DNA of 64,000 nucleotides from Patescibacteria group bacterium (GCA_028714495.1 JAQTMH010000003.1:8496-72495); one strand, 5' to 3'; counted from the stretch's first letter, positions 3,838 through 44,217 are shown. Program-made: numbers and translations. Notes: generated by a model not told the origin, from the sequence alone.

Positions 3838-4030
3838 GATGGCTGCGCACATCACCTCATCTGTGCATGACGCTCTCATAAGAGACACCCAGAGCCGCAG
3901 CGGGTGCCTGACCCCTGGTGAGCGCTCACCTCACCTAAGGGTAAGCCTTCCCTGGTCAGAGCGTCCAAACCATCTCGGCTCTCAAGGAAGCCTCCATGGT
4001 TCACTGCGGCCCCTATTAGCCGCAGTGGTA
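3838..4030 (+). ncRNA. candidate structured ncRNA, possibly SRP RNA (4.5S-like) or alternatively 6S RNA
   Basis: A roughly 190-nt GC-rich block (about 58% GC) in AT-rich intergenic DNA. It contains CCUGGUCAG ... AAGGAAGC, which resembles the SRP RNA helix 8 motif (GGUCAG ... GGAAGGAAGC), a 9-bp hairpin at its 5' end and a perfect GGTGAGCGCTCACC palindrome. The overlapping 68-aa ORF is S/R/P/H-rich and not protein-like. Confidence 0.35.
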
Positions 4031-4181
4031 TTATTATGTTAAATAAGTATTTTATATTTGTCAATTTAATTAGCAGAACTCTATTCCAGTATATAACAAA
4101 AAAGAATCCATTATTGATATCGATGGAAAAATAGTAGTAGCAAGAAAACGGCTCATACAGCCGTTTTCTTGTATGAATTTA

Positions 4182-5930
4182 CTAATTTACTTTTTTATTA
4201 TCTTTGGCGATTTTCTCATCCAATTCCCTCTCCTTCACCCTCTGCTTCGCCTCTGAATCCGCCCTGGCCCAGTCATATTGATTGTAGTCGACGAATTTCA
4301 TATGGTCGGCGCGCCAGTCAGATCGCTCCTGGATCTTTCTATGGAGTTCTTGGCAGACTTTGCGATAGGCAGGATGTCCCTGGGGGCCGGTTCGCAGTTC
4401 CAGCAGATGATAAGCTTCGCGCTCGTTGAAAGCCAGAAGCCAGCGGACTTTTGAGCCGTGAAGAGTGGCGTAAGACGCTTCGCTCGGAAAGTCAGGATAT
4501 AGCCTGTTATAAAGCTCCATTGATTTCTCATGGCAAGCTTTTATTTTATCTTCAAAACCGGCTTTGATAATATCTGGAGGCATGGTAAATCCCAGCAGAG
4601 GTGAAAAACGCTGCTTGAGCTGGGAAGTCATCCGGTGACGCATCACGTCTTTATAAACTCCAAAATCCGTGACCAGGTCAAAGGTGTAGGGGTAACCGGC
4701 TTCAAAAGCTCGATATGGCCGATCCCGCCGAGTTTTTCTTTCGCCAATATAAGTATTGATTATCTTTTCTCGGCTTTCAACCGGAAGTTTTTCGACAATC
4801 TTGATTAATTGCTTCAAAGGGTGCCGGCAATAGGCATAAAGCATCATTGCCAAAGTGACATTGTCAAAACGGTCTTGCATAATCGATTTAACTTTGTCGA
4901 GAGTGATATATCCCTGGCTCAGCTTGTGGGCAATGTAATTCTCGCCGAAATCAAGAAGCGAAATATTCTCATCAGCCATCGGCTCTGTGTCTTTCAGCAA
5001 TTCAACAGCTAGGGCGTACATATTTTTCTCGATTGACGATTGATATTCATTTGCCTTGGCTCGGCGGACATAGGCTGGGATGATCTTGGCCAGTTCAAGA
5101 GCCGCTGATTTTCCAATTGTTTGGGCTTCGGGAAAAGGACTGCTCAGTAGCGCGCTGATAAATCCTTGATAAAATCTCCCATTGCCAAACCAGCCGACAT
5201 TCGTTTTCGTTGATAAAGGTAAAATGTAACGTAGCGTATCACAAGCTCTGGTACGAATATCCATCTGGTAAGTCGTTTTAAATGCCTTTTGATCGACCGG
5301 GTCAGTCAAATCATCGTAGCGTTGTTTTACTTTCGTGCCTTTGATGTCGTATTCAGCCTGCTTCAACGGCTTCAACTTCTGATAATATTTCTTCATCGGT
5401 TCAATCAATTCGCAATAGGTCTGAAAGAAAAAATCCATTGTCTCAATGTACGCCTGCCCATGCTTCGAGGCCACGATATTCGGGTCTCGGTAGTAGCGAT
5501 AATTCCCCGCCTCATCCTTTTGGTCGTAAAAAACATACCGCGTAGATTGCTCAATCGGCGAGCCCCCGATCCGGCATTCCTCCATCTCCTTAGTGGCTAT
5601 TATTGTAACATTCTCGGTTGAGAGGTGTGTGCCCTCCAGTTCGCCCACAGAATCGTCCCCAAACGCTATTAAAACGCGCTGGATGAGCTCTGCGGCGTGT
5701 TTGGGATCTACCACACCCTCTTTGATGAATTCCTTCAGCAGGGTCTCGCGAAAGCCCCCCCTGGCCCGGCTATATCGAGCATAGGCCGCGCCGACCATTC
5801 CCTGCATTCCGGTTACGCAAAAAACATCGCCGGTTGGATCGGTTACGTATTTCTTTAAGAGTTCGATTTCTTCGGGTGTGAATATCGGCATATATTTATC
5901 TTCCAGTGCTGCCAAATCCTCCTTGGCCAC
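4182..5930 (-). CDS. thyX: flavin-dependent thymidylate synthase ThyX, long (tandem-like) form
   Basis: Carries the ThyX signature RHR(x7)S (VMRHRMTSQ). At 582 aa it is about twice the canonical ThyX length, as in the long chlamydial-type ThyX. The track start is a GTG that overlaps the dut stop; an ATG (MPIFTPEE) 13 codons downstream is an alternative start. Confidence 0.65.
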   Translation of the reverse strand: MAKEDLAALEDKYMPIFTPEEIELLKKYVTDPTGDVFCVTGMQGMVGAAYARYSRARGGFRETLLKEFIKEGVVDPKHAAELIQRVLIAFGDDSVGELEGTHLSTENVTIIATKEMEECRIGGSPIEQSTRYVFYDQKDEAGNYRYYRDPNIVASKHGQAYIETMDFFFQTYCELIEPMKKYYQKLKPLKQAEYDIKGTKVKQRYDDLTDPVDQKAFKTTYQMDIRTRACDTLRYILPLSTKTNVGWFGNGRFYQGFISALLSSPFPEAQTIGKSAALELAKIIPAYVRRAKANEYQSSIEKNMYALAVELLKDTEPMADENISLLDFGENYIAHKLSQGYITLDKVKSIMQDRFDNVTLAMMLYAYCRHPLKQLIKIVEKLPVESREKIINTYIGERKTRRDRPYRAFEAGYPYTFDLVTDFGVYKDVMRHRMTSQLKQRFSPLLGFTMPPDIIKAGFEDKIKACHEKSMELYNRLYPDFPSEASYATLHGSKVRWLLAFNEREAYHLLELRTGPQGHPAYRKVCQELHRKIQERSDWRADHMKFVDYNQYDWARADSEAKQRVKERELDEKIAKDNKKVN

Positions 5931-6321
5931 GCTCGGTATCGCTTAATTTTTCGACTTCGACAATTTTAGCCTGTTCAACCGGCTGGACAAGCAGTTGCGC
6001 GATCTTATCGCCTTTTTTTATTTCCTGAGGGTTTTCGCCCGTGTTGAGGAGTACGATCATCAGTTCGCCGCGATAGCCCGAATCAAGCACGCCGCTAAGG
6101 CAATGGATCCCCTTTTTTGAAGCCAGCCCGCTCTTGTCCCAGACCAGTCCGACATAACCATTAGGAAGTTCCAGCGCGATACCCACGGGAAATGTGCGAC
6201 GCTCTGATGGCTTGATGGTGTAGTTTTCACAGCTAAACAAATCCAAGCCGGCATCTCCAGGAAAAGCGTATTCTGGCAATCTCGCCTCTGAATTCAACCT
6301 TTTTATTTTCACGCTTAGCAT
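5896..6321 (-). CDS. dut: dUTP diphosphatase
   Basis: Classic dUTPase motifs: GDAGLDL, GYRGE and a C-terminal GGFGSTG. Confidence 0.95.
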   Translation of the reverse strand: MLSVKIKRLNSEARLPEYAFPGDAGLDLFSCENYTIKPSERRTFPVGIALELPNGYVGLVWDKSGLASKKGIHCLSGVLDSGYRGELMIVLLNTGENPQEIKKGDKIAQLLVQPVEQAKIVEVEKLSDTERGQGGFGSTGR

Positions 6322-6394
6322 AGATATATATTAACGGATAAACAAAATCAGAGCAAATTTAAGAGATTTTGTAGTAAATGATAATGCGAACACT

Positions 6395-6420
6395 GCTATC
6401 ATGCTATATAGCATGATAGC
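6395..6420. promoter_or_regulatory. perfect 26-bp palindrome (candidate operator) in the dut-thyX upstream region
   Basis: GCTATCATGCTATATAGCATGATAGC is exactly self-complementary. It lies between the dut start and the stop of the TrpR-like gene. Confidence 0.5.
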
Positions 6421-6431
6421 ACGCGTCTGCT

Positions 6432-6743
6432 CTATTTTTTTATTGTTTTTAACGCTGTCTCATAACCGCCTCTGCCAAAATTTAACCAGCGGTCCACCCG
6501 TGAAATTGTCGGAAATCCTGCTTTTAGCTTCTCCCGGATTTCACGGTGGCTTTTACCACTGATTAGCATATCAGCAATGAGCAGTCGCCTAATTAGCATG
6601 ATTCTCTCCTGTCGGTTCAAGAGGTCTTTCAGGAAATTGCGAATGTCTGATTTTGTTTTCAATCTGGCCAACGTCTCGCAGAAATGATCCATCAACCGAT
6701 CCTGCAGTTTATAAGGAATCTTATTGGCATTGTAGCGTGCCAT
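6432..6743 (-). CDS. TrpR/YerC-YecD family putative DNA-binding protein
   Basis: About 104 aa from the MARYNANK start. A helix-turn-helix-like region (LISGKSHREIREKLKAGFPTISRV) fits the Trp repressor-like YerC family. Confidence 0.55.
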   Translation of the reverse strand: MARYNANKIPYKLQDRLMDHFCETLARLKTKSDIRNFLKDLLNRQERIMLIRRLLIADMLISGKSHREIREKLKAGFPTISRVDRWLNFGRGGYETALKTIKK

Positions 6744-6767
6744 AAATACTCCACGGCAAATCCCCCT

Positions 6768-6840
6768 GCTATCATGGCTACCCAGCACTGAGTCTGGTGC
6801 TGGGCTATATAGCATGAAACGTATACCAAATATAGCATTA
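6768..6840. promoter_or_regulatory. cluster of operator half-site repeats plus a hairpin upstream of the TrpR-like gene
   Basis: GCTATCATGGCTA (left half of the palindrome), then the hairpin CCCAGCAC ... GTGCTGGG, then CTATATAGCATGA and AATATAGCATTA. The TATAGCATGA half-site recurs. Confidence 0.35.
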
Positions 6841-8343
6841 TTTAATTATTCTCACAATTCCTTTGGTGGCATCCACCTCTACCATATCCCCGTCCTTCAG
6901 TACCCGCATGGCAAACCGCGTGCCGACGACACACGGGATTTTCAGCTCGCGTGCGATTATCGCGGCGTGCGAGGTTAGACCGCCTTCGTCCGTAATGATT
7001 CCCGCTGCCCGATGCATAAGTGGAACAAAATCAGGCCGCGTCATATACGTCAGCAGTATTTCGCCTGGCCGAAGATTCTTACCATGAATGGAAGGGGTTT
7101 CGATTTTTCTTATCCTCCCGCGAATACGGCCCGGGGATGCGGCAATGCCGGAAAAAACCGTGGTTTGAGTCGGCAGATTTAGACCAGCAATCCGCCGCCA
7201 GCAGGCCTCATACCGACGGCCGCTCATCATAATTTCCTGCCCGTCGACAAAAGTTATATAGGCACAACCGCTAATGCGCCGTTGGAGTTCAGGGCGCAAC
7301 ACTTTTTTCCCTCGATACGCCCTAAACAGTTCATGCGGCGTCAGATGCCATATTTCCGATACTGTATAACCGAGTTCCTTCGCAAACAGCTTAATAAATT
7401 TCTGACACCAGTAGTTGGCAATGAGATTCGCCTGCTTCCGCTCATCCTGCCAATGTCCGGCCCAGCCGACTGACTTTAATGCCCGCATCTCATAAGAAGT
7501 AAGGCTAGTGCGGCGGCTGGCCTTAAATTGTGTTTTTGCCAGCGACAACCGATAATTACGTAGCTCCTGCCGGCGCTGATTTTTCTTTCCGGACGTCATT
7601 TTAGTCAGCGCAAGCAACTTGTTATAAAAATATTCAAGGCTTAGCGGAACCGTGTCCCGATAATTGAACTGAACCCAGAAATACCGGCGCTGGATTCGCT
7701 CAAGGTCGCGATAGGCCTCCGGCCGGCGACGCTGAAATTCGGCCAAGCGAGTCGGCAACCGTTTCTGGCCGAGCGATTTTTCCAATTGCAATAGATCGAG
7801 TTCTAATCGTTGAAGAAACGACAGTTTTGGAGGCTGAGTAAAAACGATAATATCATCATCAAGCCTTTTGTATCCCGCATATTTCCTTTTCAGCTCGCGG
7901 ACAAATTTATCTCCACCGAGCGAATAATACTCAGTGATCAATGGCAAACTGTATTCATCTAGATACAGCCGATAAAAACGCTGGAATTCCTTGAGCGGCT
8001 GCCGCGAAATGTCCGTCTTTTCTAATCGTTCTATCTCCTGGTAGAAACGCCGTTTGAAAACTAGCCAGCGCCGAAAAACACGCTGGACATAATCCTTATT
8101 TTTGAAACACCAGTAGCCTTTACCCTCAAATTCATCCTCGTCGTAGATCCAGTACGATTTCAGACCATTCTGCGTGGAGACGACAACGATTTTTTCAGCG
8201 GCTAATTTCGGAAATTGCCGGCGGAGCACGTAGGTGATCGCTTGTCCGGGAATGATCGCCGTAAACGGCACAAAGACCCCGCCCTGGATCACCCAGTGCG
8301 TGGTACCCGAAAATAATCTTTTTTCCGCTTTGGCAATGTTCAT
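6838..8343 (-). CDS. PEP-utilising enzyme mobile (phosphohistidine swivel) domain protein, paralog 1
   Basis: The C-terminus reads ITDEGGLTSHAAIIARELKIPCVVG (PF00391-like, catalytic His). The roughly 400-aa N-terminal region is helical and of unknown function. There is no ATP-grasp domain and no PEP-binding TIM barrel. Confidence 0.8.
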   Translation of the reverse strand: MNIAKAEKRLFSGTTHWVIQGGVFVPFTAIIPGQAITYVLRRQFPKLAAEKIVVVSTQNGLKSYWIYDEDEFEGKGYWCFKNKDYVQRVFRRWLVFKRRFYQEIERLEKTDISRQPLKEFQRFYRLYLDEYSLPLITEYYSLGGDKFVRELKRKYAGYKRLDDDIIVFTQPPKLSFLQRLELDLLQLEKSLGQKRLPTRLAEFQRRRPEAYRDLERIQRRYFWVQFNYRDTVPLSLEYFYNKLLALTKMTSGKKNQRRQELRNYRLSLAKTQFKASRRTSLTSYEMRALKSVGWAGHWQDERKQANLIANYWCQKFIKLFAKELGYTVSEIWHLTPHELFRAYRGKKVLRPELQRRISGCAYITFVDGQEIMMSGRRYEACWRRIAGLNLPTQTTVFSGIAASPGRIRGRIRKIETPSIHGKNLRPGEILLTYMTRPDFVPLMHRAAGIITDEGGLTSHAAIIARELKIPCVVGTRFAMRVLKDGDMVEVDATKGIVRIIK

Positions 8344-9815
8344 GCTCTTGTTATTACGCCATGATCCGCATCCACCTCCACTCTATCCCCATCCTTCAGT
8401 ATATTAACCGCCCCCTGAACTCCGACTACGGTGGGTATTTTAAATTCGCGCGCTACAATGGCCGTGTGGCAGGTTAGCCCGCCTTCGTCAGCGACAACAG
8501 CCGCGGCGATCTTCATAATTGGCGAATATTCTGGTCTGGTATTTGGCGCGACTAATATATTGCCTGGTTTCATCTTATGGAAATCGCGCTTGTCTCTGAC
8601 AATTCTGACAGTGCCTTTAACAATCCCCGGATAGGCTGACCGGCCAGTCAGCTTGGCATTCTCTTTGATCTTATTTTTAAGATAGTTGTTCAAATTCCGG
8701 CCGGTTTCTCCGTAAAATTCAATAAAATTATCTAAATCTTTCAAATAGTAAAAAACCGGCTGACGGCGGTTTTTAATGTTTTTAATAAATTTAGGCGTTA
8801 GTCTAAAGATTTTCTCTATTTCCCAATGAAACAGGCGCTCGACTTCTTCAACAGTTAAACGGGTCCGCCGGCTGAATTCCTTGGCGAATTTTTGCAATAC
8901 ATTAGACGCCATCTGATTGTAAGCTTTTCTTTCATCGCGAAAATTTCCTAGTCTTGAAAGAAAATTTACCGTGCTATAGAAATGTTCGGTAAACTTGTAT
9001 CTTTGGTAAATCTCTCTTCTTAAATAGACCAGCTTATCCAAAAATTTAGCCGTGGCCTTTTCTTTTTTTATTTTAGCTTTGTTCTTCAGCAATACTTCCA
9101 GTTCCCTCTTAAAATACTGCGCATCCAAATATTCAGTCGTGGCGTAATCATTATGCAGCCAATAGAAATTTCGACTATGTTTGGCCAATTCGCGATTAAG
9201 GTATCTTTCATTTTTAATAATGCCTCCTCGTTTTATAACGCTCTCGGCGATTTTCAAAAGCGCTAGCCGCTCTTTTTGTAGAAATGACGGATTAGGCGGT
9301 GTCAGAATAATTTCCAAATCTCTAGGATTTATCTTCTTGTTTTCCTTTGTCAGCGCGTCGCTTAAGATATCGTCTCCGCAACAGTCGAAGCTGTCCAAGA
9401 ACACCGCTTCGTGCCATACCTTCATATACGCTTTGGTGAAAACGCGAAACTGAATAAGCAATTCTTGGTTCGAGTATCGACCAAGATCATCCCGCCTAAG
9501 TTGATTCAAAGCCCTCTTATATGGTTTGACGCATTCAACGTGCCAGTAATCAATTAATTTTTTGAGAAAGCGTTCGTTTTTATTTTGCTTGTTAAAATAA
9601 TAATCGGATATTTTTTTCAGCGACCTTTTTGAGAAATAAACTTCAAAATAGTGATTTTTAAAATAAACCAATGTTTCGTATTTAAACGACATCACTCTTC
9701 CCATTACCGACATCAGCGTGCAAGCGCGCCAAGGATATGACGCGTATAATAGCTTTGCCGCGCTGCCCTGTGTGTACCAGTCTAATTTCTTTATATTATC
9801 TATGTTTATTCGCAT
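8340..9815 (-). CDS. PEP-utilising enzyme mobile domain protein, paralog 2
   Basis: The C-terminus reads VADEGGLTCHTAIVAREFKIPTVVG. It shows a 4-bp overlap (ATGA) with paralog 1. Confidence 0.8.
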   Translation of the reverse strand: MRINIDNIKKLDWYTQGSAAKLLYASYPWRACTLMSVMGRVMSFKYETLVYFKNHYFEVYFSKRSLKKISDYYFNKQNKNERFLKKLIDYWHVECVKPYKRALNQLRRDDLGRYSNQELLIQFRVFTKAYMKVWHEAVFLDSFDCCGDDILSDALTKENKKINPRDLEIILTPPNPSFLQKERLALLKIAESVIKRGGIIKNERYLNRELAKHSRNFYWLHNDYATTEYLDAQYFKRELEVLLKNKAKIKKEKATAKFLDKLVYLRREIYQRYKFTEHFYSTVNFLSRLGNFRDERKAYNQMASNVLQKFAKEFSRRTRLTVEEVERLFHWEIEKIFRLTPKFIKNIKNRRQPVFYYLKDLDNFIEFYGETGRNLNNYLKNKIKENAKLTGRSAYPGIVKGTVRIVRDKRDFHKMKPGNILVAPNTRPEYSPIMKIAAAVVADEGGLTCHTAIVAREFKIPTVVGVQGAVNILKDGDRVEVDADHGVITRA

Positions 9816-9990
9816 ATTTTTCTAATTCCTTATCGATTTTCTCGTATAGCTCATCAAACGATCTGTTATTATCTATCGCGAAATCAGCCATGGTCATGCA
9901 TCGGCTGATATTCGGCCTTGTCGGATCAGTGGAATTCATTTCACGCCGTTCCCATTCCCACAACCATTTATTATTATACTCTAGATTCAT
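9796..9990 (-). pseudogene. remnant 3' fragment of a P-loop kinase gene (duplicate of the 3' end of the 12492..13058 gene)
   Basis: The 64-aa ORF contains MNSTDPTRPNISRCMTMADFAIDNNRSFDELYEKID, nearly identical to the C-terminus of the 188-aa kinase. It lies within a 120-bp direct repeat. Confidence 0.5.
9843..9962. repeat. about 120-bp direct repeat, copy A (about 93% identical to 12545..12664)
   Basis: Direct alignment of the two segments: CGTATAGCTCATCAAACGATCTGTTATTATCTATCGCGAAATCAGCCATGGTCATGCATCGGCTGATATTCGG ... Confidence 0.8.
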
Positions 9991-11072
9991 ATCTTCCTCA
10001 CAATCCCCTTATTTGCGTCCACCCCTACCCGGTCGCCATTCTTCAGCACCGTGGTCGCAATTTTTGTCCCGACAATCGTTGGAATTTTGAATTCTCTGGC
10101 GACAATCGCCGCGTGGCATGTTAACCCGCCCTCGTCGGTGATGATCGCTTTGGCATTGCGCAGATACTGGGAAAACCGAACCGTCGTCATCGGCGTTACG
10201 ATCACGTATCGCCCGCGAAGTTTTTTCAGATCTCGAAGTGTTCTGACCACCCGGGCAATGCCAATGACAGGCTTCAGCGCTGCGTACGCGGTTTGGCCAT
10301 GGAGAGCTACAGCATTGTTGCTTTCCCTGCCCGGTACTTCACGCTTGACTTGTTTCTGTATTTGTTTCGCGCGCTGGCCAATAAACAATTGTATTTTCCC
10401 GCCAACGGCTTGCAATGCATACAGACGGTAGCGCTTTTCAAGCTCTGACGCTGAAACCACCGGCCTGTTCCGGCGCAACGACTCAACCAATTCCTGGCAA
10501 TTCATAAACATGACTCGCTTTTTTTCTATCCCCAGCATGACACTCAGTGACGCTGCAAACGCCGGGATGACGACATCGTCAACCCAGGTTAATATCTTGC
10601 CACAATAATCTTTGGTGTAGCCGCAATCAGCGATTGTTGCGCGCGTAAAGGTATGGCGATGCGTATCGACGAGCGTGGGAAACCGGTAGACCGAATACAT
10701 TTCTCGGTAGGAGCGATAAAAATCCCCCAGCAACACGGCCAATGCTTTTGTCTCAAGATGTCTGCCTAACGCCCTGTTTATCCGGCCGATCTGAATGACA
10801 TTCCGCGCAAAAATCTTACGTATTTTGCCATTGATTCGACGGACAGCCGTGTCGTCTGATCGATCGAGAAAAGTTTGGAACGAACGTGAATCGCGTTCCG
10901 AAAAATAACTTTTTTCAATATCCTTTTCAGAAATAAAAAGCTGGTCGCGATAGCCCCAGCCGAGCGCTTTCTTCATATCGCGGACATACCCCTCAAGACC
11001 GAGACTCAGAATGAAATACGGAAAACCTTCCCGGGTAAAGACGGGGGTCCATTGTATGTTTTTATTTCCCAT
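9987..11072 (-). CDS. PEP-utilising enzyme mobile domain protein, paralog 3 (shorter N-terminus)
   Basis: The C-terminus reads ITDEGGLTCHAAIVAREFKIPTIVG. The protein is 361 aa. Confidence 0.75.
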   Translation of the reverse strand: MGNKNIQWTPVFTREGFPYFILSLGLEGYVRDMKKALGWGYRDQLFISEKDIEKSYFSERDSRSFQTFLDRSDDTAVRRINGKIRKIFARNVIQIGRINRALGRHLETKALAVLLGDFYRSYREMYSVYRFPTLVDTHRHTFTRATIADCGYTKDYCGKILTWVDDVVIPAFAASLSVMLGIEKKRVMFMNCQELVESLRRNRPVVSASELEKRYRLYALQAVGGKIQLFIGQRAKQIQKQVKREVPGRESNNAVALHGQTAYAALKPVIGIARVVRTLRDLKKLRGRYVIVTPMTTVRFSQYLRNAKAIITDEGGLTCHAAIVAREFKIPTIVGTKIATTVLKNGDRVGVDANKGIVRKI

Positions 11073-12486
11073 GCGTCCCGATCCAATTAAATTCCTCGCC
11101 CATCATGTCCATCGGACGTAAGCCGAGGTTTTTTCGTTCAGCGGCCGGAACATAGCTTTCATAGATTTCGAGAAGGGCGGGCTGAAGCAAATCCTTGTAT
11201 TTCATTGCTAATAGATGTTCAAGATAATCACGCGTCAGGCCGCCATCATAGATCACGTCAAAGGCGTATTGATTTATAATCGCGTTTTGCGCGTCACGGG
11301 CATAGGTCGCAATCGTGCCGCCAATCAATCCTTTTGTATCAATCGATTGTATTCTGGCGCATTCATCGGGCGCGTCAGTTAATACGGACAGCCAGGTTTC
11401 TTTCATCCGAGTAATATAATTGCAGGAACCGTGTCCAACCAGCGGCCGCACGCCCAGCCAAAACGTCAGATAGCCGAAAATGACAAATAAATTCGGGATA
11501 ATCGCGCCATCCGCAAGGCTTTTTATTACCTCAGCCGAATTGCCTAAATCAAGCTCAAACCGACCGTCAGTTGAACACAGGATCGTACCCCGCAGAAACA
11601 TGGGCTTGGCCTCGTTTTTCGCATCGCGATACCAGAAGAAGTGAGTACCCTTACCCTTCGCTTCGTTCCAACAACCGGTCAGGTCTTCAAAGGCGGCCAA
11701 AATACGAGCGCGAAAATCAGTATTGAAAAGACTGCGGCTCAGGATATTGTCCTCGGCCAATATCGACGGCAGAATCGTCCGCATAATATCTTCCTGGGTA
11801 ACATACAGTAAGTCGGGTATCGTCTCCCGGATCGACTTGTGAAATAGTTTTTTCCACAAAAACGCGTTGATGATTGCTATTTGGTCGTTGTAGCTTTTGG
11901 TCTGGGAAAAATCCAGTCCGCCTATCTCCTGTTCTATGGCTTTCAAAAAATCCTGTTCCTCGCCGGTAAAATCTTTCCAGCTGTCGGTCTTTCGCAAATT
12001 CTCGGTGAAATTAAAATCGCGCCGGCCGATAAAACAGCTGGCTTGATGCATTTCCTTATTCGAAAAAAGTGGCACGCGCTTGCCGTGGAGCTGAAACCCC
12101 TTACGATTGAAAAAATTGTTCGGTGGAACTACTGAACTTGTTAGTACGACGATCGGCTGTCGGTCGCCCGTGAGCAGGCGGTGGGCATTGGCGACAAGGT
12201 TCGTAGCGAGCAGTATTGGGTGGTTGAGGATGGAATGATGGTCGACAATATTGAGGCTCAGCGGCGGAGTAACGCATTCCTGGCGCTGAAAAACGCGCGC
12301 CAGATACTCAGCAATCGTTCGAGCCAAAAACCCTTGGCGTTGCGTATGGACCGAGTCGGCCGTATAGGTGAAGAGCGTATGTGAAAACTCAGTAATTGTA
12401 TCGTTGCAGTCAAAATATTCCGCCACCACCGGGGCGTATTTCCGTATACCGTTTTTCAGTATTTCGATGTTTTTTGAGTCAGGCAT
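11062..12486 (-). CDS. hypothetical protein (474 aa), co-operonic with the swivel-domain paralogs
   Basis: Long ORF overlapping paralog 3 by 11 bp. No family was recognised by eye. Confidence 0.6.
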   Translation of the reverse strand: MPDSKNIEILKNGIRKYAPVVAEYFDCNDTITEFSHTLFTYTADSVHTQRQGFLARTIAEYLARVFQRQECVTPPLSLNIVDHHSILNHPILLATNLVANAHRLLTGDRQPIVVLTSSVVPPNNFFNRKGFQLHGKRVPLFSNKEMHQASCFIGRRDFNFTENLRKTDSWKDFTGEEQDFLKAIEQEIGGLDFSQTKSYNDQIAIINAFLWKKLFHKSIRETIPDLLYVTQEDIMRTILPSILAEDNILSRSLFNTDFRARILAAFEDLTGCWNEAKGKGTHFFWYRDAKNEAKPMFLRGTILCSTDGRFELDLGNSAEVIKSLADGAIIPNLFVIFGYLTFWLGVRPLVGHGSCNYITRMKETWLSVLTDAPDECARIQSIDTKGLIGGTIATYARDAQNAIINQYAFDVIYDGGLTRDYLEHLLAMKYKDLLQPALLEIYESYVPAAERKNLGLRPMDMMGEEFNWIGTHGK

Positions 12487-12491
12487 AGTGG

Positions 12492-13058
12492 CTACTTCAC
12501 AAGATCGCCCAAGCCGATATCTTTTAATACGTCGTCGATCTTTGCATATAGCTCATCAAACGATCCGTTATTATCTATCACAAAATCAGCCATGGTCATG
12601 CATCGGCTGATATTCGGCTTTGTCGGATCAGTGGAATTCATTTCACGCTGTTCGTTTTCCACAAACTCCTCAAAATTTACGGCATCGGTTTCACTGTTAC
12701 GTTTTTTTATCCTCTCAAATCGAATTTTCAATTCCGCGTCAACAGCCAAAAGGTAAAATCTGTCTTTGTTTTTTAGGGCCTCAACTTCTCCGGGAGCGCG
12801 CAGGCTTTCAATAACGCAATTACCGCCGGCTTTTTCGGCTTCTTTATACAGCTCTTCGGCGATATAGCTTGGCGAATATTTTTTCCTCAGGTCATTCGCC
12901 ACCATCACCATGCTGTCGCGATTTTCCGGCAGACCCAGCTTTCTTATTTGCTTAAGCAAAAATTCCCTGACTGAGTAATGTTTATACCCTTTCTTTTTCA
13001 GGTATTCAACCACCGTGCCCTTGCCCGCTCCCAGTGTGCCGGTGATTCCGATGATCAT
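12492..13058 (-). CDS. P-loop nucleotide/nucleoside monophosphate kinase (dephospho-CoA kinase or dNMP kinase-like)
   Basis: N-terminal IIGITGTLGAGKGTV P-loop in a 188-aa protein. Its start overlaps the dCMP deaminase stop. Confidence 0.55.
   Translation of the reverse strand: MIIGITGTLGAGKGTVVEYLKKKGYKHYSVREFLLKQIRKLGLPENRDSMVMVANDLRKKYSPSYIAEELYKEAEKAGGNCVIESLRAPGEVEALKNKDRFYLLAVDAELKIRFERIKKRNSETDAVNFEEFVENEQREMNSTDPTKPNISRCMTMADFVIDNNGSFDELYAKIDDVLKDIGLGDLVK
12545..12664. repeat. about 120-bp direct repeat, copy B (3' end of the kinase gene)
   Basis: See copy A at 9843..9962. Confidence 0.8.
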
Positions 13059-13591
13059 TTTACATCCTTCATTACTACGTCGCCTTCGGGAGCTATCGTT
13101 TCCTCAACTTCATCCTCAAAAATTTCCCTGACCAAGGCGTTCCATTCGGAATTATCTTTGTACAGATCCACCCGCAGACCGGCGGCTCTCAAATAATCTG
13201 CTGATTTCGTGTTGCGATAAACTTTCGCGTAAACTACCCTTTTTATACCGGCAGCCACAACGTATTTGCAGCAATGGATGCAGGGCAGAAACTTCACATA
13301 CAATGTTGATCCTTCGGTGCTGGCTCCTGGTATGACCGCGGCCTGCAGAATGGTATTGTGCTCGGCGTGAATGGTCCTGACACAGTGACCTTCTTCCATT
13401 AAATGTCCCACCTCATCGCAATGCGGCAATCCTGGAGGAGAACCATTGTAACCGGTCGAGATAATCCTATTGTTTTTCACTAATACGGCGCCGCCTCTCA
13501 ATCGATCGCAAGTCCCTCTGGTGGCCACAATCCTGGCTAGAGCCATAAAATAGTCATCCCAAGTCGGGCGATAATACTTTGACTTTGCCAT
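13055..13591 (-). CDS. dCMP deaminase (ComEB-like)
   Basis: Zinc-binding motifs HAEHNTI and PCIHCCK of the cytidine/deoxycytidylate deaminase family. Confidence 0.9.
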   Translation of the reverse strand: MAKSKYYRPTWDDYFMALARIVATRGTCDRLRGGAVLVKNNRIISTGYNGSPPGLPHCDEVGHLMEEGHCVRTIHAEHNTILQAAVIPGASTEGSTLYVKFLPCIHCCKYVVAAGIKRVVYAKVYRNTKSADYLRAAGLRVDLYKDNSEWNALVREIFEDEVEETIAPEGDVVMKDVK

Positions 13592-13600
13592 AATATTAAT

Positions 13601-14281
13601 TTAAATGATAATTCTAATTCCCGGACCCATGGTGGAAGTCAGGGTAACATTGCGGACGTAAATTCCTTTCGAACCGTCAGGCTTGACCCGGCGAATCGCG
13701 TCAATGAAAGCCTTGGCGTTATCAGCCAGCATTTTCGCCTCGAATGAAGCCTTGCCGATAATTTGATGGACATTGCCGGTTTCATCGGAACGAAACGCCA
13801 CTTTACCGCTCTGCAAATCTTTGATCGTTTTCGCGACATCATTCGTCACGGTTTCATTTTTGGGGTTTGGCATTAAGCCTTTGGTTCCCAAGATCTTGGC
13901 AATCGGACCGAGCTTGCGCATCATTTCGGGTGTGGCCAGAGCCAAATCGAATTTCGTCTTCTCAGTGGTTTTTATCTCTTTGATCAGCTCTTCACCGCCG
14001 ACAATCGAAGCCCCGGCGTCTTTTGCCTTTGCCTGGTCGCTGTCATTAGCAAAAACTGCGATTACCAGCTTCCGGCCCGTGGGATGAGGCAATTGGGCCG
14101 TGGCGCGCACTTGCTGATCGGCTTTTTTTACGTCGATACCCAGACGGATATGCATCTCAATAGACTCGTCAAATTTTGCCGTGGAGCATTTCTTGACGAG
14201 TTCGATAGCTTCAGCCAGCGGATAGACCTTGTTTTTCTCAACACCATCCTTAACTGACCGATAGCGCTTACTCTTTTTCAT
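13601..14281 (-). CDS. rplA: 50S ribosomal protein L1
   Basis: Full-length similarity to the L1 family (226 aa) in the conserved rplK-rplA arrangement. Confidence 0.95.
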   Translation of the reverse strand: MKKSKRYRSVKDGVEKNKVYPLAEAIELVKKCSTAKFDESIEMHIRLGIDVKKADQQVRATAQLPHPTGRKLVIAVFANDSDQAKAKDAGASIVGGEELIKEIKTTEKTKFDLALATPEMMRKLGPIAKILGTKGLMPNPKNETVTNDVAKTIKDLQSGKVAFRSDETGNVHQIIGKASFEAKMLADNAKAFIDAIRRVKPDGSKGIYVRNVTLTSTMGPGIRIII

Positions 14282-14355
14282 TGTTTATCCCCTTCGTGGT
14301 TCAAGCGACTTCTCGACTTTGCCCGAAGTCTCCCACCTAGGTAAATTATTATTTA

Positions 14356-14778
14356 TCATTCAATGGTTATGCCCATGTTCCGAGCCGTACCTTCGATTAT
14401 CTTCATGGCTCCAGCGATGTCTTTGGCGTTCAAATCCGACATCTTCTTCTCGGCAATCTCTTTTATCTGCTGGCGCGTCACCTTGCCCACTTTGGTCCGA
14501 AGCGAATCGCCTGACCCCTTTTCTATGCCCGCCGCCTTTTTCAATAAGACCGCGGCCGGAGACGTCTTGCAGATAAACGCAAACGTCCGGTCCAGATAAA
14601 CCGTAATTTCAACCGGCACAATGTCATTGCCCAGACTACTGGTTTGAGCATTGAAGCGCGTGCAAAAATCCTGGATATTTAAGCCGTGCTGGCCCAGAGC
14701 CGGGCCGATTGGCGGCGCCGGAGTCGCTTTGCCGGCCGGAATTTGAAGCTTAACTACTGTTTTTACTTTTTTCGCCAT
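14356..14778 (-). CDS. rplK: 50S ribosomal protein L11
   Basis: MAKKV ... [19 protein letters not shown] is the typical L11 N-terminus. Confidence 0.95.
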
Positions 14779-14784
14779 ATGGTA

Positions 14785-15330
14785 TTAAATCTTTTTAATT
14801 TGGAGAAAGTCGAGTTCGATCGGCGTTTCGCGTCCGAACATTGAAACGAATATTTTAACCTTGCCGCGAGCTTCGTCAATTTCACTGACCTTGCCTTCAA
14901 AATCTTTGAACGGCCCGTCGATAATCCTGACCGGTGAATTCACGCTGACATCAATTTTATACTTTGGCTCTTCCACGCCCATGCGCTTCTGGAGCGATTT
15001 CACCTCGTTATCAGAAATCGGAGTGGGCGTAGTGCCGGAACCCACGAAGCCGGTGACATTGGGAGTATTTCGAACCACGTACCAAGAATCGTCAGTCACC
15101 ACCATCTCAATCAAGACATAGCCGGGAAAAATCTTTTCCGTGACGATTTTCCTCTTGCCGTTCCTGATTTTGATTTTTTTCTCGGTTGGGATTAAGACAT
15201 TAAAAATCTTATCCTCCATATCCATGGATTCGATTCTTTGCCTGAGATTGCGGGAGACGTTTTCCTCATAGCCCGAATAGGTGTGGAGGACATACCAGCG
15301 ACGACCTTGGGCGGCTGTTTGTTTCGGCAT
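14785..15330 (-). CDS. nusG: transcription termination/antitermination factor NusG
   Basis: NGN domain (WYVLHTYSGYE) plus a KOW domain. Conserved position between secE and rplK. Confidence 0.95.
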   Translation of the reverse strand: MPKQTAAQGRRWYVLHTYSGYEENVSRNLRQRIESMDMEDKIFNVLIPTEKKIKIRNGKRKIVTEKIFPGYVLIEMVVTDDSWYVVRNTPNVTGFVGSGTTPTPISDNEVKSLQKRMGVEEPKYKIDVSVNSPVRIIDGPFKDFEGKVSEIDEARGKVKIFVSMFGRETPIELDFLQIKKI

Positions 15331-15339
15331 AGCTTATTC

Positions 15340-15543
15340 TTAAATTGTTCTTGACAAAAGTTTTTCCAAACCGATATTGAAAATAAAATCCAGGACACCC
15401 AAAAATATGGCCACCCCCAGGCTGATACCGATTACCAGGAGCGTGTTTCGCACCGTTTCCTGGCGGGTAGGCCAAACCACCCTTTTCATTTCCCGTCGAG
15501 AATCTTTGAGATAGCGAACAATTTTATTATTGGCAATATCCAT
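15340..15543 (-). CDS. secE: preprotein translocase subunit SecE
   Basis: 67-aa single-TM protein immediately upstream of nusG. Confidence 0.85.
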   Translation of the reverse strand: MDIANNKIVRYLKDSRREMKRVVWPTRQETVRNTLLVIGISLGVAIFLGVLDFIFNIGLEKLLSRTI

Positions 15544-15658
15544 CGTGGTTTTTAAAATCCGCTTTCGGCGGACTTAGTTTCTAAGGCCATTATACAATAG
15601 GCTTTTCGCGGTCGTCAAGTTCAATTTACCCACAGGCCCACTACCGGCCAAAAAACGC

Positions 15659-16201
15659 CTACCAGCGCGATTCTTTCATTTTCAGAAAGAAACCGATATA
15701 GGAAACCGCGATATGGAAAAAAAATCCCAGGGCTAGCGTTACCAGCCAAATCCGCCAACTTAACGTAAAATAAAGGGCCGAGAACGCCAGACCGCCCAAG
15801 ACATAGTCAATCTGATCAAACGGCACCCAGGGCTGGCCGGGCAATACGCCGATCCGCCTTTTAACAAAGGCTCTGATTAAGTCTCCAAACAACGCTCCAA
15901 AACCAACCACAAATCCGTAATGCGACGGAATCGATGGATAATCAATCAGACTGAGATATTTAAACGACGGGATCTGGTAGATGGCCTGCTGGATTACAAA
16001 AGTGGCCCCTCCGGTCAGCGTGCCCAAAATAATTCCCCGCCAGGTTTTATGATCTCCAAACAGGGGCTGGCCACGAAACCTATGATTGTTATCGATTGGC
16101 CGAGCCAGCACGCTCAGCCTTCCTTTAAAAATTACCGGACTCATGTTCGCCACGCCAAACGGCAAAAGTAGCCAGCAGCATTGAAGAATAAATTGGACCA
16201 T
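15659..16201 (-). CDS. CDP-archaeol synthase-like (CarS/DUF46-type) membrane protein
   Basis: 180-aa polytopic membrane protein with a GDHKTWRG segment. It is adjacent to a CDP-alcohol phosphatidyltransferase. Confidence 0.4.
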   Translation of the reverse strand: MVQFILQCCWLLLPFGVANMSPVIFKGRLSVLARPIDNNHRFRGQPLFGDHKTWRGIILGTLTGGATFVIQQAIYQIPSFKYLSLIDYPSIPSHYGFVVGFGALFGDLIRAFVKRRIGVLPGQPWVPFDQIDYVLGGLAFSALYFTLSWRIWLVTLALGFFFHIAVSYIGFFLKMKESRW

Positions 16202-16203
16202 GG

Positions 16204-16653
16204 TTAGTTAAAATTTATTATCAAAAAATAAACTAGAAATACTAATCGGATAGGCAGAATAAAAGCAAACCTGCGCCAGTAGCTAACAATGGACAACAAA
16301 CAATTTAATATAAAAAAGCCAAACCAGGGAACGGGATAGTAAAGGAAAATAATTCCTTCAGACAAGCGATCTGCCACGATGTCAATGATCCAGCCTTTCC
16401 GGCTTGCCAGGCCATATTTTTTCGCGATTATTCCGTCAAACCAGTCACCCAGTAAATTAATTACCAAAAAAACTACGGCCAGCCAGATGATGTTTTGTTT
16501 GTAAAAAACCGCGAAGCCAAAAGCCGCCCCTACCGCCAAAGCGCTGATGAACGATGGATTGATCCTCGGCCAGGACAGATTTATCAGCCAACCATCAGTC
16601 AGCTTCCGCATGTTTATAACCCACTTCATTTTTGAGGGCGAATCTTTTTGCAC
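16204..16653 (-). CDS. CDP-alcohol phosphatidyltransferase family protein
   Basis: Family motif D-x2-DG-x2-AR ... G-x3-D-x3-D (GDWFDGIIAKKYGLASRKGWIIDIVADRL). Confidence 0.7.
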   Translation of the reverse strand: MQKDSPSKMKWVINMRKLTDGWLINLSWPRINPSFISALAVGAAFGFAVFYKQNIIWLAVVFLVINLLGDWFDGIIAKKYGLASRKGWIIDIVADRLSEGIIFLYYPVPWFGFFILNCLLSIVSYWRRFAFILPIRLVFLVYFLIINFN

Positions 16654-16721
16654 TTGCCACGTTTTATTAGGGTTGCTAAGATTAGATACTTTAACGTCCG
16701 GCTGGAAAGGAGGGATCGCCC

Positions 16722-43357: not shown

Positions 43358-43361
43358 AATT

Positions 43362-44213: not shown

Positions 44214-44217
44214 TTCT

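What the first reader, a model, noticed from the sequence alone, without database searches (positions are those of the whole stretch)
6838..13591. Operon of three tandem paralogs carrying only a PEP-utilising phosphohistidine swivel domain, with a 474-aa unknown, a P-loop kinase and dCMP deaminase
Three consecutive proteins (501, 491 and 361 aa) end in the same roughly 90-aa PEP-utilising-enzyme mobile domain (xxDEGGLTSHAAIxAREL/FKIPxVVG, with the catalytic His). Each has a long, divergent helical N-terminal region. None has the ATP-grasp nucleotide-binding domain or the PEP/pyruvate TIM barrel that PEP synthase, PPDK or rifampin phosphotransferase need. The genes are translationally coupled (ATGA overlaps) to a 474-aa unknown protein, a small P-loop kinase and dCMP deaminase, immediately downstream of secE-nusG-rplK-rplA. 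The architecture (substrate-binding region plus swivel His domain, with the nucleotide-binding partner encoded separately) looks like a split phosphotransferase relay similar to RPH. The nucleotide-salvage neighbours (tdk, tmk, thyX, dut, dCMP deaminase, kinase) hint that the substrates could be nucleotides or nucleosides rather than antibiotics. The paralog expansion suggests diversifying selection.
Basis: partly seen in the sequence, partly recalled or inferred. Interest (0 to 1): 0.75.

Follow-up and report, generated by a model that had tools for sequence, protein, structure and literature searches.

The report
Split rifampin-kinase-like enzymes plus novel ligase
Three neighbouring genes in an ultra-small (Patescibacteria) bacterium encode the substrate-binding and phosphate-carrying half of a known kind of two-part small-molecule kinase. 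One of them travels between genomes as a two-gene cassette with an uncharacterised enzyme that resembles the last, still unexplained enzyme of bacillithiol synthesis.

Summary
Three tandem genes (501, 491 and 361 aa) carry only a C-terminal PF00391 swivel-His domain. The P1 AlphaFold model matches rifampin phosphotransferase (RPH) over 391 residues, and all three paralogs are homologous end to end. They are therefore the substrate-binding/swivel subunits of two-component RPH-like dikinases, a known split architecture (PpsAB, CreHI, HpeHI).

The canonical ATP-grasp partner (stand-alone PPDK_N, about 325 aa) is absent from this 64-kb window. It lies next to such genes in at least 10 related loci and is a highly conserved core gene in Magasanikbacteria.

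The 474-aa protein is not an ATP-grasp. It belongs to a Pfam-less family with a BshC / class-I aminoacyl-tRNA-synthetase-like fold. In 32 Patescibacteria loci it is followed either by a swivel protein (16 loci) or by a Ddl-like ATP-grasp ligase and/or an M19 dipeptidase (9 loci).

Here the 474-aa gene plus P3 form a 2.6-kb block that is 92% identical to a relative whose flanking genes are about 70% identical. The block is bounded by a 139-nt direct repeat, so it is a recent insertion.

The nucleotide-substrate idea is not supported. The substrates remain unknown.

The parts
6838..8343 (-). P1, 501 aa: RIF-binding-domain-like helical substrate domain plus a C-terminal swivel phosphohistidine domain (His459, codon 6967-6969; QDERK motif at aa 299-303).
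8340..9815 (-). P2, 491 aa: paralog of P1 (His450; RDERK at aa 293-297). Its GC content is 40%, against 48-50% for the 474-aa, P3 and P1 genes. It has no ortholog in the closest relatives.
   Evidence: (best match in L006 is 30% identical).
9987..11072 (-). P3, 361 aa: short form of the same architecture, with about 140 aa deleted from the helical domain (His320). It is the conserved partner found immediately downstream of the 474-aa gene.
   Evidence: PF00391 E = 2e-21. hhalign A4 against A2: probability 100%, E = 6e-62. 12 orthologs all sit directly after the 474-aa gene.
11062..12486 (-). 474-aa protein: a Pfam-less family with a BshC / class-I aminoacyl-tRNA-synthetase-like fold. Conserved motifs are DHHxILNHP (aa 82-90), KGTHFFW (aa 279-285) and GHGSxNY (aa 351-357).
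9987..12572 (-). Recently exchanged block: the last part of the kinase gene, the 474-aa gene and P3. It is 92.3% identical at the nucleotide level to locus L006, whereas the flanking housekeeping genes are about 70% identical.
   Evidence: blastn. dS = 0.31 and 0.17 for the two genes, against saturated synonymous sites in nusG (pS = 0.88). Protein identities.
12522..12660 (.). Direct-repeat copy A, inside the 3' end of the functional kinase gene. In the alignment the sequence switches from window-type to donor (L006)-type about 45 nt before the stop codon.
   Evidence: the repeat finder family D1: 139 nt, 88% identity. Four-way alignment.
9820..9958 (.). Direct-repeat copy B: a remnant of the native 3' end of the kinase gene, lying in the 171-bp gap between P3 and P2. 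Its reading frame runs into the P2 start codon, so the older gene order was kinase then P2.
12492..13058 (-). 188-aa P-loop (AAA_18, PRK08356-like) kinase. It evolves fast: 36-41% identity to syntenic orthologs, while the neighbouring deaminase is 77-81% identical.
13055..13591 (-). dCMP deaminase (ComEB-like), a conserved housekeeping neighbour.
   Evidence: PF00383 E = 1e-24; TIGR02571 147.7 bits.
6432..6815 (-). TrpR/YerC-like small DNA-binding protein downstream of the array. At the corresponding position, locus L006 has a Macro-domain gene and an FBPase_3 gene instead.

Best explanation
P1, P2 and P3 are the substrate-binding plus phosphohistidine-swivel subunits (HpeH/CreH/PpsA type) of two-component, RPH-like small-molecule dikinases.

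Inferred mechanism: a separately encoded ATP-grasp subunit (stand-alone PPDK_N, about 325 aa) binds ATP and transfers the beta-phosphate to the swivel His of each paralog. The swivel domain then returns to its own helical domain and phosphorylates a bound small molecule (ATP + substrate gives AMP + Pi + substrate-P). One conserved ATP-grasp 'hub' would serve a variable, horizontally exchanged set of substrate-specific subunits.

In this window the hub gene is not present and must lie elsewhere in the genome.

P3 is a special case. It is the dedicated partner of the 474-aa BshC-like (class-I aaRS-fold) enzyme, with which it overlaps, co-diverges and is transferred as a 2.6-kb cassette. The two most likely act on the same metabolite, through phosphoryl activation or modification of the substrate or product of a ligase-type reaction.

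Shown here: domain content, folds, homology among the paralogs, gene linkage, the recombination scar and purifying selection. Inferred: phosphotransfer from a trans ATP-grasp subunit, catalysis, and any functional coupling with the 474-aa protein. Substrates are unknown.
For: Domain content and fold:
- Only PF00391 is detected, with an intact DEGGLT[S/C]H motif.
- The family motif QDxRK aligns with the catalytic Arg666-Glu667...Lys670 block of RPH.
- Fused PPDK_N + P1-like + swivel proteins exist (P0184: 29% identity over 88% of P1).

The ATP-grasp partner:
- A stand-alone PPDK_N gene lies within 10 kb of swivel genes in L005, L013, L014, L022, L023, L026, L031, L032, L043, L044 and the P0008 contig, at ratios of one PPDK_N gene to as many as 8 swivel genes.
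- PPDK_N is very conserved: the top 120 clusters are 67-85% identical to the query. It occupies a fixed backbone position, with a variable slot in front of it.
- It retains the GGKG and VRSSATAED ATP-binding motifs.

The 474-aa/P3 cassette:
- A P3-type gene directly follows the 474-aa gene in 12 loci.
- Pairwise identities of the two proteins correlate (r = 0.88).
- The 92%-identical block lies between flanks of about 70% identity and carries a 139-nt repeat scar.
- dN/dS is 0.09 for the 474-aa gene and 0.22 for P3, so both genes are functional.
Against: - No PPDK_N homolog is found in the 64-kb window (tblastn) or in the 21-kb loci of the nearest relatives L006 and L009. Its presence in this genome is unverified.
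- The first position of the P2 swivel motif is Ala rather than Thr/Ser.
- P3 lacks a clear QDxRK motif. It has only a candidate, TKDxCG, whose Asp is not invariant.
- No substrate can be named.
- About half of the 474-aa homologs have no swivel neighbour, so the 474-aa enzyme does not require a swivel protein in general.
- Some RPH-like proteins have become non-catalytic regulators (PspR, PMC10948481).
Confidence: 0.6

Rival explanations
1. One reading: the 474-aa protein is itself the nucleotide-binding partner. It binds ATP in its Rossmann (HUP) site and charges the swivel His of P3 (and perhaps P1 and P2), replacing the ATP-grasp subunit.
For: - The 474-aa protein has a class-I aaRS/BshC-type nucleotide-binding fold.
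- A conserved His-rich loop (DHHxILNHP) follows the first strand, where HIGH sits in class I synthetases. This placement is inferred from the secondary structure.
- The gene is tightly coupled to P3 in 12 loci and moved here without any PPDK_N gene.
- No PPDK_N gene is found in the window or in the closest relatives' loci.
Against: - HUP-fold enzymes cleave ATP between the alpha and beta phosphates (adenylylation). I know of no case of one phosphorylating a swivel His (my own knowledge).
- Most other loci with the 474-aa/P3 pair also have a PPDK_N gene nearby.
- The 474-aa family also occurs without any swivel gene: with Ddl-like/M19 genes in Patescibacteria, and in actinobacterial gene clusters.
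- Canonical HIGH and KMSKS motifs are absent.
Confidence: 0.1
2. The paralogs are nucleoside or nucleotide kinases that belong to the surrounding dTTP-salvage operon (dCMP deaminase, kinase, dut, thyX, tdk, tmk).
For: - The genes are co-directional and tightly packed between dCMP deaminase/kinase and dut/thyX. tdk and tmk lie nearby.
- The same synteny occurs in L006, L009 and L021.
- Nucleotide-related genes recur near such arrays elsewhere: NUDIX, HIT, HD, Macro, Carb_kinase and CTP synthase.
Against: - The deaminase/kinase context is limited to 4 closely related genomes out of 32 loci.
- The 474-aa/P3 block is a recent insertion here.
- Other loci place the module between unrelated genes.
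- Characterised relatives phosphorylate phenols or rifamycins, not nucleosides (PMC12167813, PMC4844700).
- Patescibacteria genomes are generally dense in nucleotide-metabolism genes, so proximity is weak evidence (my own knowledge).
Confidence: 0.12
3. The paralogs are non-catalytic: ligand sensors or regulators derived from RPH-like enzymes (as with haloarchaeal PspR), or regulatory swivel modules like the C-terminal domain of Bacillus pyruvate kinase.
For: - PspR shows that an RPH-like protein can become a repressor.
- Family members fused to XRE-type HTH domains exist (P0129, P0143, P0160).
- A TrpR-like gene follows the array.
- No ATP-grasp gene is present in the window.
Against: - The catalytic His and its Gly-rich loop are conserved in all three paralogs and invariant across 62 homologs.
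- The RPH catalytic block is retained as QDxRK.
- P1, P2 and P3 have no DNA-binding domain.
- The linkage to PPDK_N in relatives is expected of enzymes.
Confidence: 0.1
4. The genes are decaying fragments of PEP synthase or PPDK (pseudogene remnants).
For: They are annotated as 'PEP-utilizing enzyme', and they hit PEP synthase models only partially.
Against: - The ORFs are full length, with confident compact folds (pLDDT 95).
- More than 2500 homologs share the same architecture.
- dN/dS is 0.22 for P3.
- The N-terminal domain is RPH-like, not a broken ATP-grasp.
Confidence: 0.02

Closest known systems
Two-component small-molecule dikinases: HpeHI, CreHI and phenylphosphate synthase PpsAB (also AcvAB)
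   Same: - One subunit carries an RPH-type substrate-binding domain and a C-terminal swivel His domain. The other is a stand-alone ATP-grasp of about 320-340 aa.
- The T/SxxGGxxxH motif is present.
- RPH is the only PDB structure that matches the H-type subunit over most of its length.
   Different: - The subunits here are shorter (361-501 aa, against about 610-640 aa for HpeH and PpsA).
- Several divergent H-type paralogs occur per locus (3-8) for a single I-type gene.
- In this window the I-type gene is not linked.
- The host is a Patescibacterium with no aromatic-catabolism context.
- One paralog is paired with a BshC-like enzyme.
- The catalytic block reads QDxRK instead of RExxK.
Rifampin phosphotransferase (RPH; PDB 5HV1 and 5FBS)
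   Same: - The Glu/Asp and Lys of catalytic block 9 are conserved.
   Different: - RPH is a single chain with an N-terminal ATP-grasp. Here that domain is missing.
- NCBIfam RPH scores are 49-75 bits, against a cut-off of 999.
- Conservation of the rifampin-contacting residues was not assessed.
PEP synthase / pyruvate phosphate dikinase / PTS enzyme I
   Same: Homologous swivel phosphohistidine domain (35-50% identity to PEP synthase over about 100 residues).
   Different: No ATP-grasp domain and no PEP/pyruvate TIM barrel (PF02896). The N-terminal domain is unrelated.
BshC (bacillithiol synthase, putative cysteine ligase; PDB 4WBD) and class I aminoacyl-tRNA synthetases (class I LysRS, CysRS, MshC)
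   Same: - Like BshC, it has no canonical HIGH or KMSKS motif that I could see.
   Different: - 8-10% sequence identity, and no hit to the Pfam BshC model or any other model.
- It is shorter (474 aa against 540) and has no obvious long coiled-coil domain.
- The gene context differs: a swivel protein, or Ddl-like/M19 genes, or actinobacterial HypE/HypF-like and NRPS-like clusters.

Membership tests
Two-component RPH-like small-molecule dikinase, H-type subunit (HpeH/CreH/PpsA) | C-terminal swivel domain with the T/SxxGGxxxH motif and the catalytic His | tested here: met
   PF00391 E = 1e-21 to 1e-27. P1 has TDEGGLTSH, P3 has TDEGGLTCH and P2 has ADEGGLTCH, where the first position is Ala.
Two-component RPH-like small-molecule dikinase, H-type subunit (HpeH/CreH/PpsA) | Substrate-binding domain homologous to the RIF-binding domain of RPH | tested here: met
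   [not shown]
Two-component RPH-like small-molecule dikinase, H-type subunit (HpeH/CreH/PpsA) | Catalytic Arg-Glu...Lys of RPH block 9 | tested here: inconclusive
   By transitive alignment through P0184, RPH YREYPK corresponds to MQDVRK. P1 has QDERK and P2 has RDERK, with D, R and K at least 90% conserved. P3 has only a candidate, TKDYCGK. There is no structural superposition at residue level.
Two-component RPH-like small-molecule dikinase, H-type subunit (HpeH/CreH/PpsA) | A separate ATP-grasp (PPDK_N) subunit in the same genome | tested here: inconclusive
   Absent from the 64-kb window and from the L006 and L009 loci. Present next to homologous genes in at least 10 other loci. The rest of this genome could not be read.
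Two-component RPH-like small-molecule dikinase, H-type subunit (HpeH/CreH/PpsA) | ATP-dependent dikinase activity (AMP + Pi + phosphorylated substrate) | not testable with these tools
   Requires biochemistry.
PEP synthase / PPDK | N-terminal ATP-grasp (PF01326) and C-terminal PEP/pyruvate TIM barrel (PF02896) in the same protein | tested here: not met
   Neither domain is detected at E <= 0.1. NCBIfam PEP synthase scores are 97-119 bits, against a cut-off of 598.
BshC family (PF10079), for the 474-aa protein | Sequence match to the family model | tested here: not met
   No Pfam or NCBIfam hit at E <= 0.1. Neither the single sequence nor the profile finds 4WBD by sequence.
BshC family (PF10079), for the 474-aa protein | BshC fold (Rossmann core with CP insertions) | tested here: met
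   [not shown]
BshC family (PF10079), for the 474-aa protein | Genomic association with bshA and bshB (bacillithiol pathway) | not tested
   No glycosyltransferase/deacetylase pair was noticed among the called neighbours, but whole genomes were not examined.
Class I aminoacyl-tRNA synthetase | HIGH and KMSKS signature motifs and an anticodon-binding domain | tested here: not met
   [not shown]
Anti-phage dCTP deaminase (kinase-deaminase fusion, NF041025 / PADLOC dCTPase) | A single protein with an N-terminal kinase and a C-terminal deaminase that scores above the family cut-off | tested here: not met
   Here these are two separate genes in the reverse order. Scores are 49.5 and 71.7 bits, against a cut-off of 400. 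The deaminase fits ComEB/dCMP deaminase better (147.7 bits).

The most novel reading that the evidence does not exclude
The BshC-like 474-aa enzyme does not activate its own substrate by adenylylation. Instead it is served by an external ATP-grasp-based phosphoryl-activation partner. That partner is either a phosphohistidine carrier (P3, charged by PPDK_N) that docks into its open active site, or, in other lineages, a Ddl-like ATP-grasp ligase or a fused ATP-grasp domain.

This would be a new kind of two- or three-protein ligase. It would also offer a concrete, testable answer to why the BshC reaction has never been reconstituted ('unidentified activated form of Cys / additional protein', PMC5790435).
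Probability: 0.12. Interest if true: 0.85.

Novelty: new variant of a known kind. Interest (0 to 1): 0.55.

Why it matters
- Swivel-only 'PEP-utilizing enzymes' are very common in Patescibacteria and DPANN genomes (more than 2500 hits), and they are routinely misread as fragments of PEP synthase. Recognising them as interchangeable substrate modules of a hub-and-spoke dikinase changes metabolic reconstructions of these reduced genomes. It also points to a diversifying small-molecule phosphorylation repertoire, for detoxification or for scavenging.
- The 474-aa family (about 1100 clusters, no Pfam model) is a new BshC-like enzyme family. Its alternating partners (swivel protein, or Ddl-like ligase and/or M19 dipeptidase) give an experimental handle on it and possibly on BshC chemistry.
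- The insertion scar is a clear, datable example of cassette exchange between Patescibacteria lineages.

Tried and rejected
- An Rfam scan of 4000-17000 for a riboswitch that might name a ligand gave only chance-level hits.
- The promoter and terminator scan was not meaningfully above shuffled expectation.
- PADLOC found no defence-system model for the swivel proteins or the 474-aa protein.
It worked with 13 closer sequences.
- I tried to locate PPDK_N in this genome by matching contig lengths among the homologs of a Magasanikbacteria PPDK_N. None matched 203,327, 203,753, 368,560 or 668,113 bp, so this stays unresolved.
- The AFDB50 fold library was unavailable.
- The RPH PNAS paper and the BshC structure paper are not held.
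- 'Truncated PpsA fragments' was rejected (folds, conservation, dN/dS).
- The split 'anti-phage dCTP deaminase' reading of the kinase and deaminase was rejected (scores far below the cut-off, reverse gene order).
- The idea that the deaminase/kinase genes belong to the module was rejected (not conserved outside one clade; the cassette is inserted).

Full report
**1. Observation**

- P1 (501 aa, 8343-6838), P2 (491 aa, 9815-8340) and P3 (361 aa, 11072-9987) each hit only PF00391, at the C-terminus (E = 4e-27, 1e-24 and 2e-21). None hits PF01326 (ATP-grasp) or PF02896 (PEP/pyruvate TIM barrel), even at E <= 0.1.
- NCBIfam models for PEP synthase, RPH, PigC/RedH and 'PRK08296' match only the swivel region, or that region plus about 70 residues upstream. 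All scores are far below the cut-offs.
- PDB sequence hits are likewise confined to residues ~390-500 of P1.
- All three carry DEGGLT[S/C]H, with the catalytic His at residues 459, 450 and 320.
- The kinase is an AAA_18 P-loop protein and the deaminase is ComEB-like.
- tdk, tmk, dut and a long thyX lie nearby.

Gene junctions differ from the description in one respect. They are ATGA overlaps at deaminase/kinase and P2/P1, an 11-nt overlap at 474/P3, and a 5-nt spacer at kinase/474. P3 and P2, however, are separated by 171 bp.

**2. What the three paralogs are**

P1 and P2 are 27% identical over 425 residues. The N-terminal region of P3 is invisible to BLAST. A profile of 12 P3 orthologs nevertheless aligns with a profile of 62 P1-type proteins over the full length (hhalign probability 100%, E = 6e-62), with about 140 residues of the helical region deleted in P3. 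All three are therefore true end-to-end paralogs.

The same result was published for HpeH, the substrate-binding/swivel subunit of the two-component hydroxyphenylethanone kinase HpeHI. That paper defines a subfamily of two-component small-molecule dikinases (HpeHI, CreHI, PpsAB) whose second subunit is a stand-alone ATP-grasp (PMC12167813).

In RPH, Arg666-Glu667 and Lys670 of 'block 9' are essential for the second phosphotransfer, and they are conserved even in distant clades (PMC4844700). A natural fusion protein, P0184, carries PPDK_N plus a P1-like domain plus the swivel domain and is 29% identical over 88% of P1. Through P0184, RPH 'YREYPK' aligns with 'MQDVRK'. This corresponds to the family motif WQDxRK, whose D, R and K are at least 90% conserved. 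P1 has QDERK and P2 has RDERK. P3 has only a candidate, TKDYCGK.

**3. The missing ATP-grasp subunit**

The window contains no PPDK_N homolog (tblastn). Around homologous genes elsewhere, a stand-alone PPDK_N of 314-342 aa is common:
- 471 aa - swivel 427 aa - PPDK_N 324 aa on one contig.
- swivel - M20 peptidase - 473 aa - swivel - (one gene on the opposite strand) - PPDK_N in a Magasanikbacterium.
- Within 10 kb in L013, L014, L022, L023, L026, L031, L032, L043 and L044, with one PPDK_N gene for as many as 8 swivel genes.

This PPDK_N is strikingly conserved. The best 120 clusters are all 67-85% identical to the query, and there are 6736 hits. It retains the GGKG and VRSSATAED nucleotide-binding motifs.

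In Magasanikbacteria PPDK_N occupies a fixed backbone position (AMMECR1 - TrwB - Carb_kinase - [slot] - PPDK_N - S41 peptidase - flavokinase). The slot in front of it holds no swivel gene, one, or several, with or without the 474-aa gene.

My inference is a hub-and-spoke arrangement, with one conserved ATP-binding subunit serving a variable set of substrate-specific swivel subunits. Whether this genome has the hub gene could not be checked, and this is the main gap.

**4. The 474-aa protein**

It has no Pfam, NCBIfam, PADLOC or PDB sequence match, either as a single sequence or as a profile.
- The word-indexed search found 66 clusters, mostly Patescibacteria.
- An exhaustive profile search found 1135 representative clusters, 501 of them at E <= 1e-30.
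- The AlphaFold2 model is excellent (pLDDT 95.3, pTM 0.93).
- In Foldseek, BshC is the only significant hit (E = 8e-6), with a low global TM-score of 0.39.

The protein is therefore a distant BshC-like member of the class-I aaRS (HUP/Rossmann) fold. It is not an ATP-grasp.

The conserved motifs are DHHxILNHP, directly after the first core strand (where HIGH sits in class I synthetases; inferred from the secondary structure only), KGTHFFW and GHGSxNY.

BshC itself is a 'putative cysteine ligase' whose reaction has never been reconstituted. It is presumed to need an unidentified activated substrate or an additional protein (PMC5790435).

**5. Gene context of the 474-aa family**

I examined 32 non-redundant Patescibacteria loci.
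- The gene immediately downstream of the 474-aa gene, usually overlapping it, is a P3-type swivel protein in 12 loci and another swivel protein in 4.
- In 7 loci it is a Ddl-like ATP-grasp ligase (NCBIfam Ddl 119 bits, below the cut-off of 243) followed by an M19 dipeptidase. In 2 more loci an M19 dipeptidase gene adjoins the 474-aa gene without a Ddl-like gene.
- Only one locus (L032) has both kinds of partner.
- A few loci have neither, or are truncated.
- One family member is fused to a RimK-like ATP-grasp domain (P0383).

In Actinobacteria the homolog closes an operon of DUF3865, a HypE-like (AIR synthase family) protein and HypF. In one 5-Mb genome it follows PhyH, PCP, thioesterase, an adenylation domain and an acyl-CoA dehydrogenase.

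The 474-aa enzyme thus works in several pathways and is repeatedly paired with ATP-grasp-type activating enzymes. The swivel protein is one of two alternative partners in Patescibacteria. Pairwise identities of 474-aa proteins and P3 N-terminal domains across 12 loci correlate (Pearson r = 0.88).

**6. The cassette is a recent insertion here**

The nearest relatives, L006/L008 and L009, share the synteny secE-nusG-rplK-rplA-deaminase-kinase-474-P3-...-dut-thyX, but the host genomes are not close:
- Protein identities are L1 72%, L11 80%, GyrB 77% and kinase 41%.
- Flanking DNA is about 70% identical.
- nusG synonymous sites are saturated (pS = 0.88).

In contrast, a sharply bounded 2586-bp block (window 12572-9987) is 92.3% identical at the nucleotide level. 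It ends exactly at the P3 stop codon. The proteins are 94% (474-aa) and 92% (P3) identical. dS is 0.31 and 0.17, and dN/dS is 0.09 and 0.22.

The block is bracketed by a 139-nt direct repeat (12522-12660 and 9820-9958, 88% identical). Both copies are the 3' end of the kinase gene.
- The downstream copy fills the P3-P2 'gap', and its frame runs into the P2 start codon.
- In the alignment, the functional kinase switches to donor-type sequence about 45 nt before its stop codon.

The older arrangement was therefore kinase then P2 then P1. The 474-aa/P3 cassette arrived from an L006-like lineage, consistent with homology-facilitated illegitimate recombination (inference).

A third related genome, L021 (NusG 93%, deaminase 81%), carries at the same site a very different cassette (474-aa protein 35%, P3 41% identical) whose nearest relatives are in other lineages.

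The array itself varies: 3 paralogs here, 5 in L006 and L009, and 8 in L013. P1 is only 67% identical to its L006 ortholog. P2 has no ortholog there (30%) and has lower GC (40% against 48-50% for the 474-aa, P3 and P1 genes).

**7. Interpretation**

Best supported: P1, P2 and P3 are H-type subunits of RPH-like two-component dikinases, charged in trans by an ATP-grasp subunit encoded elsewhere. Each is likely to phosphorylate a different small molecule. P3 acts in a fixed partnership with the BshC-like enzyme.

- The proposed role of the 474-aa protein as the nucleotide-binding partner is unlikely but not excluded.
- The nucleotide-substrate idea rests on a context that is lineage-specific and, for the 474-aa/P3 pair, recent.
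- A regulatory, non-catalytic role is possible (PspR precedent, HTH-fused relatives), but the invariant catalytic residues argue against it.
- Substrates cannot be named from these data. Detoxification of host or competitor metabolites and high-affinity scavenging are both compatible with the variable, exchanged, hub-and-spoke pattern.

**8. Novelty**

- The split dikinase is known.
- The multi-paralog arrays that share one conserved ATP-grasp gene in Patescibacteria appear undescribed in the literature I could search. So does the Pfam-less BshC-like family with its alternating swivel or Ddl-like/M19 partners, and so does the cassette insertion scar.

Noticed in passing
window 4182-5930 (-): thyX is unusually long (582 aa), with two matched Thy1 stretches. 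It may be a tandem-domain ThyX rather than the usual protein of about 220-250 aa.
   Followed up: no
window 41129-45903 (-): Low-GC island (30-31% against 45.5% for the window as a whole) encoding a ResIII helicase/nuclease (742 aa), an unknown 283-aa protein and an N6/N4 DNA methylase (561 aa). It is probably an acquired type III restriction-modification system.
   Followed up: partly
window 12492-13058 (-): The P-loop kinase evolves much faster than its neighbours: 36-41% identity to syntenic orthologs, against 77-81% for the adjacent dCMP deaminase and 93% for NusG. The kinase and deaminase also hit the two halves of the anti-phage dCTP-deaminase models, far below the cut-off and in reverse order.
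   Followed up: partly
L041 5759-11440 (+); also L036, L038, L039, L040: In Streptomyces, Kitasatospora and Dactylosporangium the 474-aa homolog is the last gene of a conserved operon: a DUF3865 (weak match, below the Pfam cut-off) protein, a HypE-like AIR-synthase-family protein and a full-length HypF carbamoyltransferase. This combination suggests carbamoyl or cyano chemistry outside hydrogenase maturation.
   Followed up: partly
L001 5037-11419 (+): In a 5.2-Mb genome the 474-aa homolog follows PhyH, a carrier protein, a thioesterase, an adenylation enzyme and an acyl-CoA dehydrogenase, which looks like a small NRPS-like biosynthetic cluster.
   Followed up: no
L015 20-3403 (+); also L016, L018, L020, L028, L032, L034: An alternative operon, 474-aa homolog then Ddl-like ATP-grasp ligase then M19 dipeptidase, occurs in these loci. 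L034 (and the M19-only loci L025, L027, L033) also has a TrmB-type regulator next to the 474-aa gene. The layout formally resembles two ligases plus a dipeptidase, as in low-molecular-weight thiol or dipeptide metabolism.
   Followed up: partly
L045, L047 and L005 (Magasanikbacteria): A conserved backbone (AMMECR1 - TrwB-like ATPase - Carb_kinase - [variable slot] - PPDK_N - small protein, with S41 peptidase and flavokinase following in L005 and L047). The slot holds 0 to 5 genes, including swivel, HD, M20 and 474-aa genes. It behaves like an integration hotspot.
   Followed up: partly
proteins P0129, P0143, P0160; P0091, P0110; P0108: Homologs of P1 occur fused to XRE-type HTH domains, to UDP-GlcNAc 2-epimerase (PF02350) or to PF01989. 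These are possible clues to regulatory or sugar-nucleotide-linked roles for some family members.
   Followed up: no
L006 17554-19337 (+): In the closest relative the swivel array (5 paralogs) is followed by a Macro-domain protein and an FBPase_3 gene. The window has a TrpR/YerC-like gene at that position.
   Followed up: no
L009, L011, L012, L017, L018, L028, L030, L042, L043: Several MAG records titled 'uncultured Gammaproteobacteria bacterium' carry Patescibacteria-type synteny and genes. L009 is collinear with the window. The taxonomic labels of these records look wrong.
   Followed up: no
L042 9899-11432 (+): The 474-aa homolog is split into two ORFs (230 and 305 aa) on a 931-kb chromosome. 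This is either a pseudogene or a sequencing frameshift.
   Followed up: no
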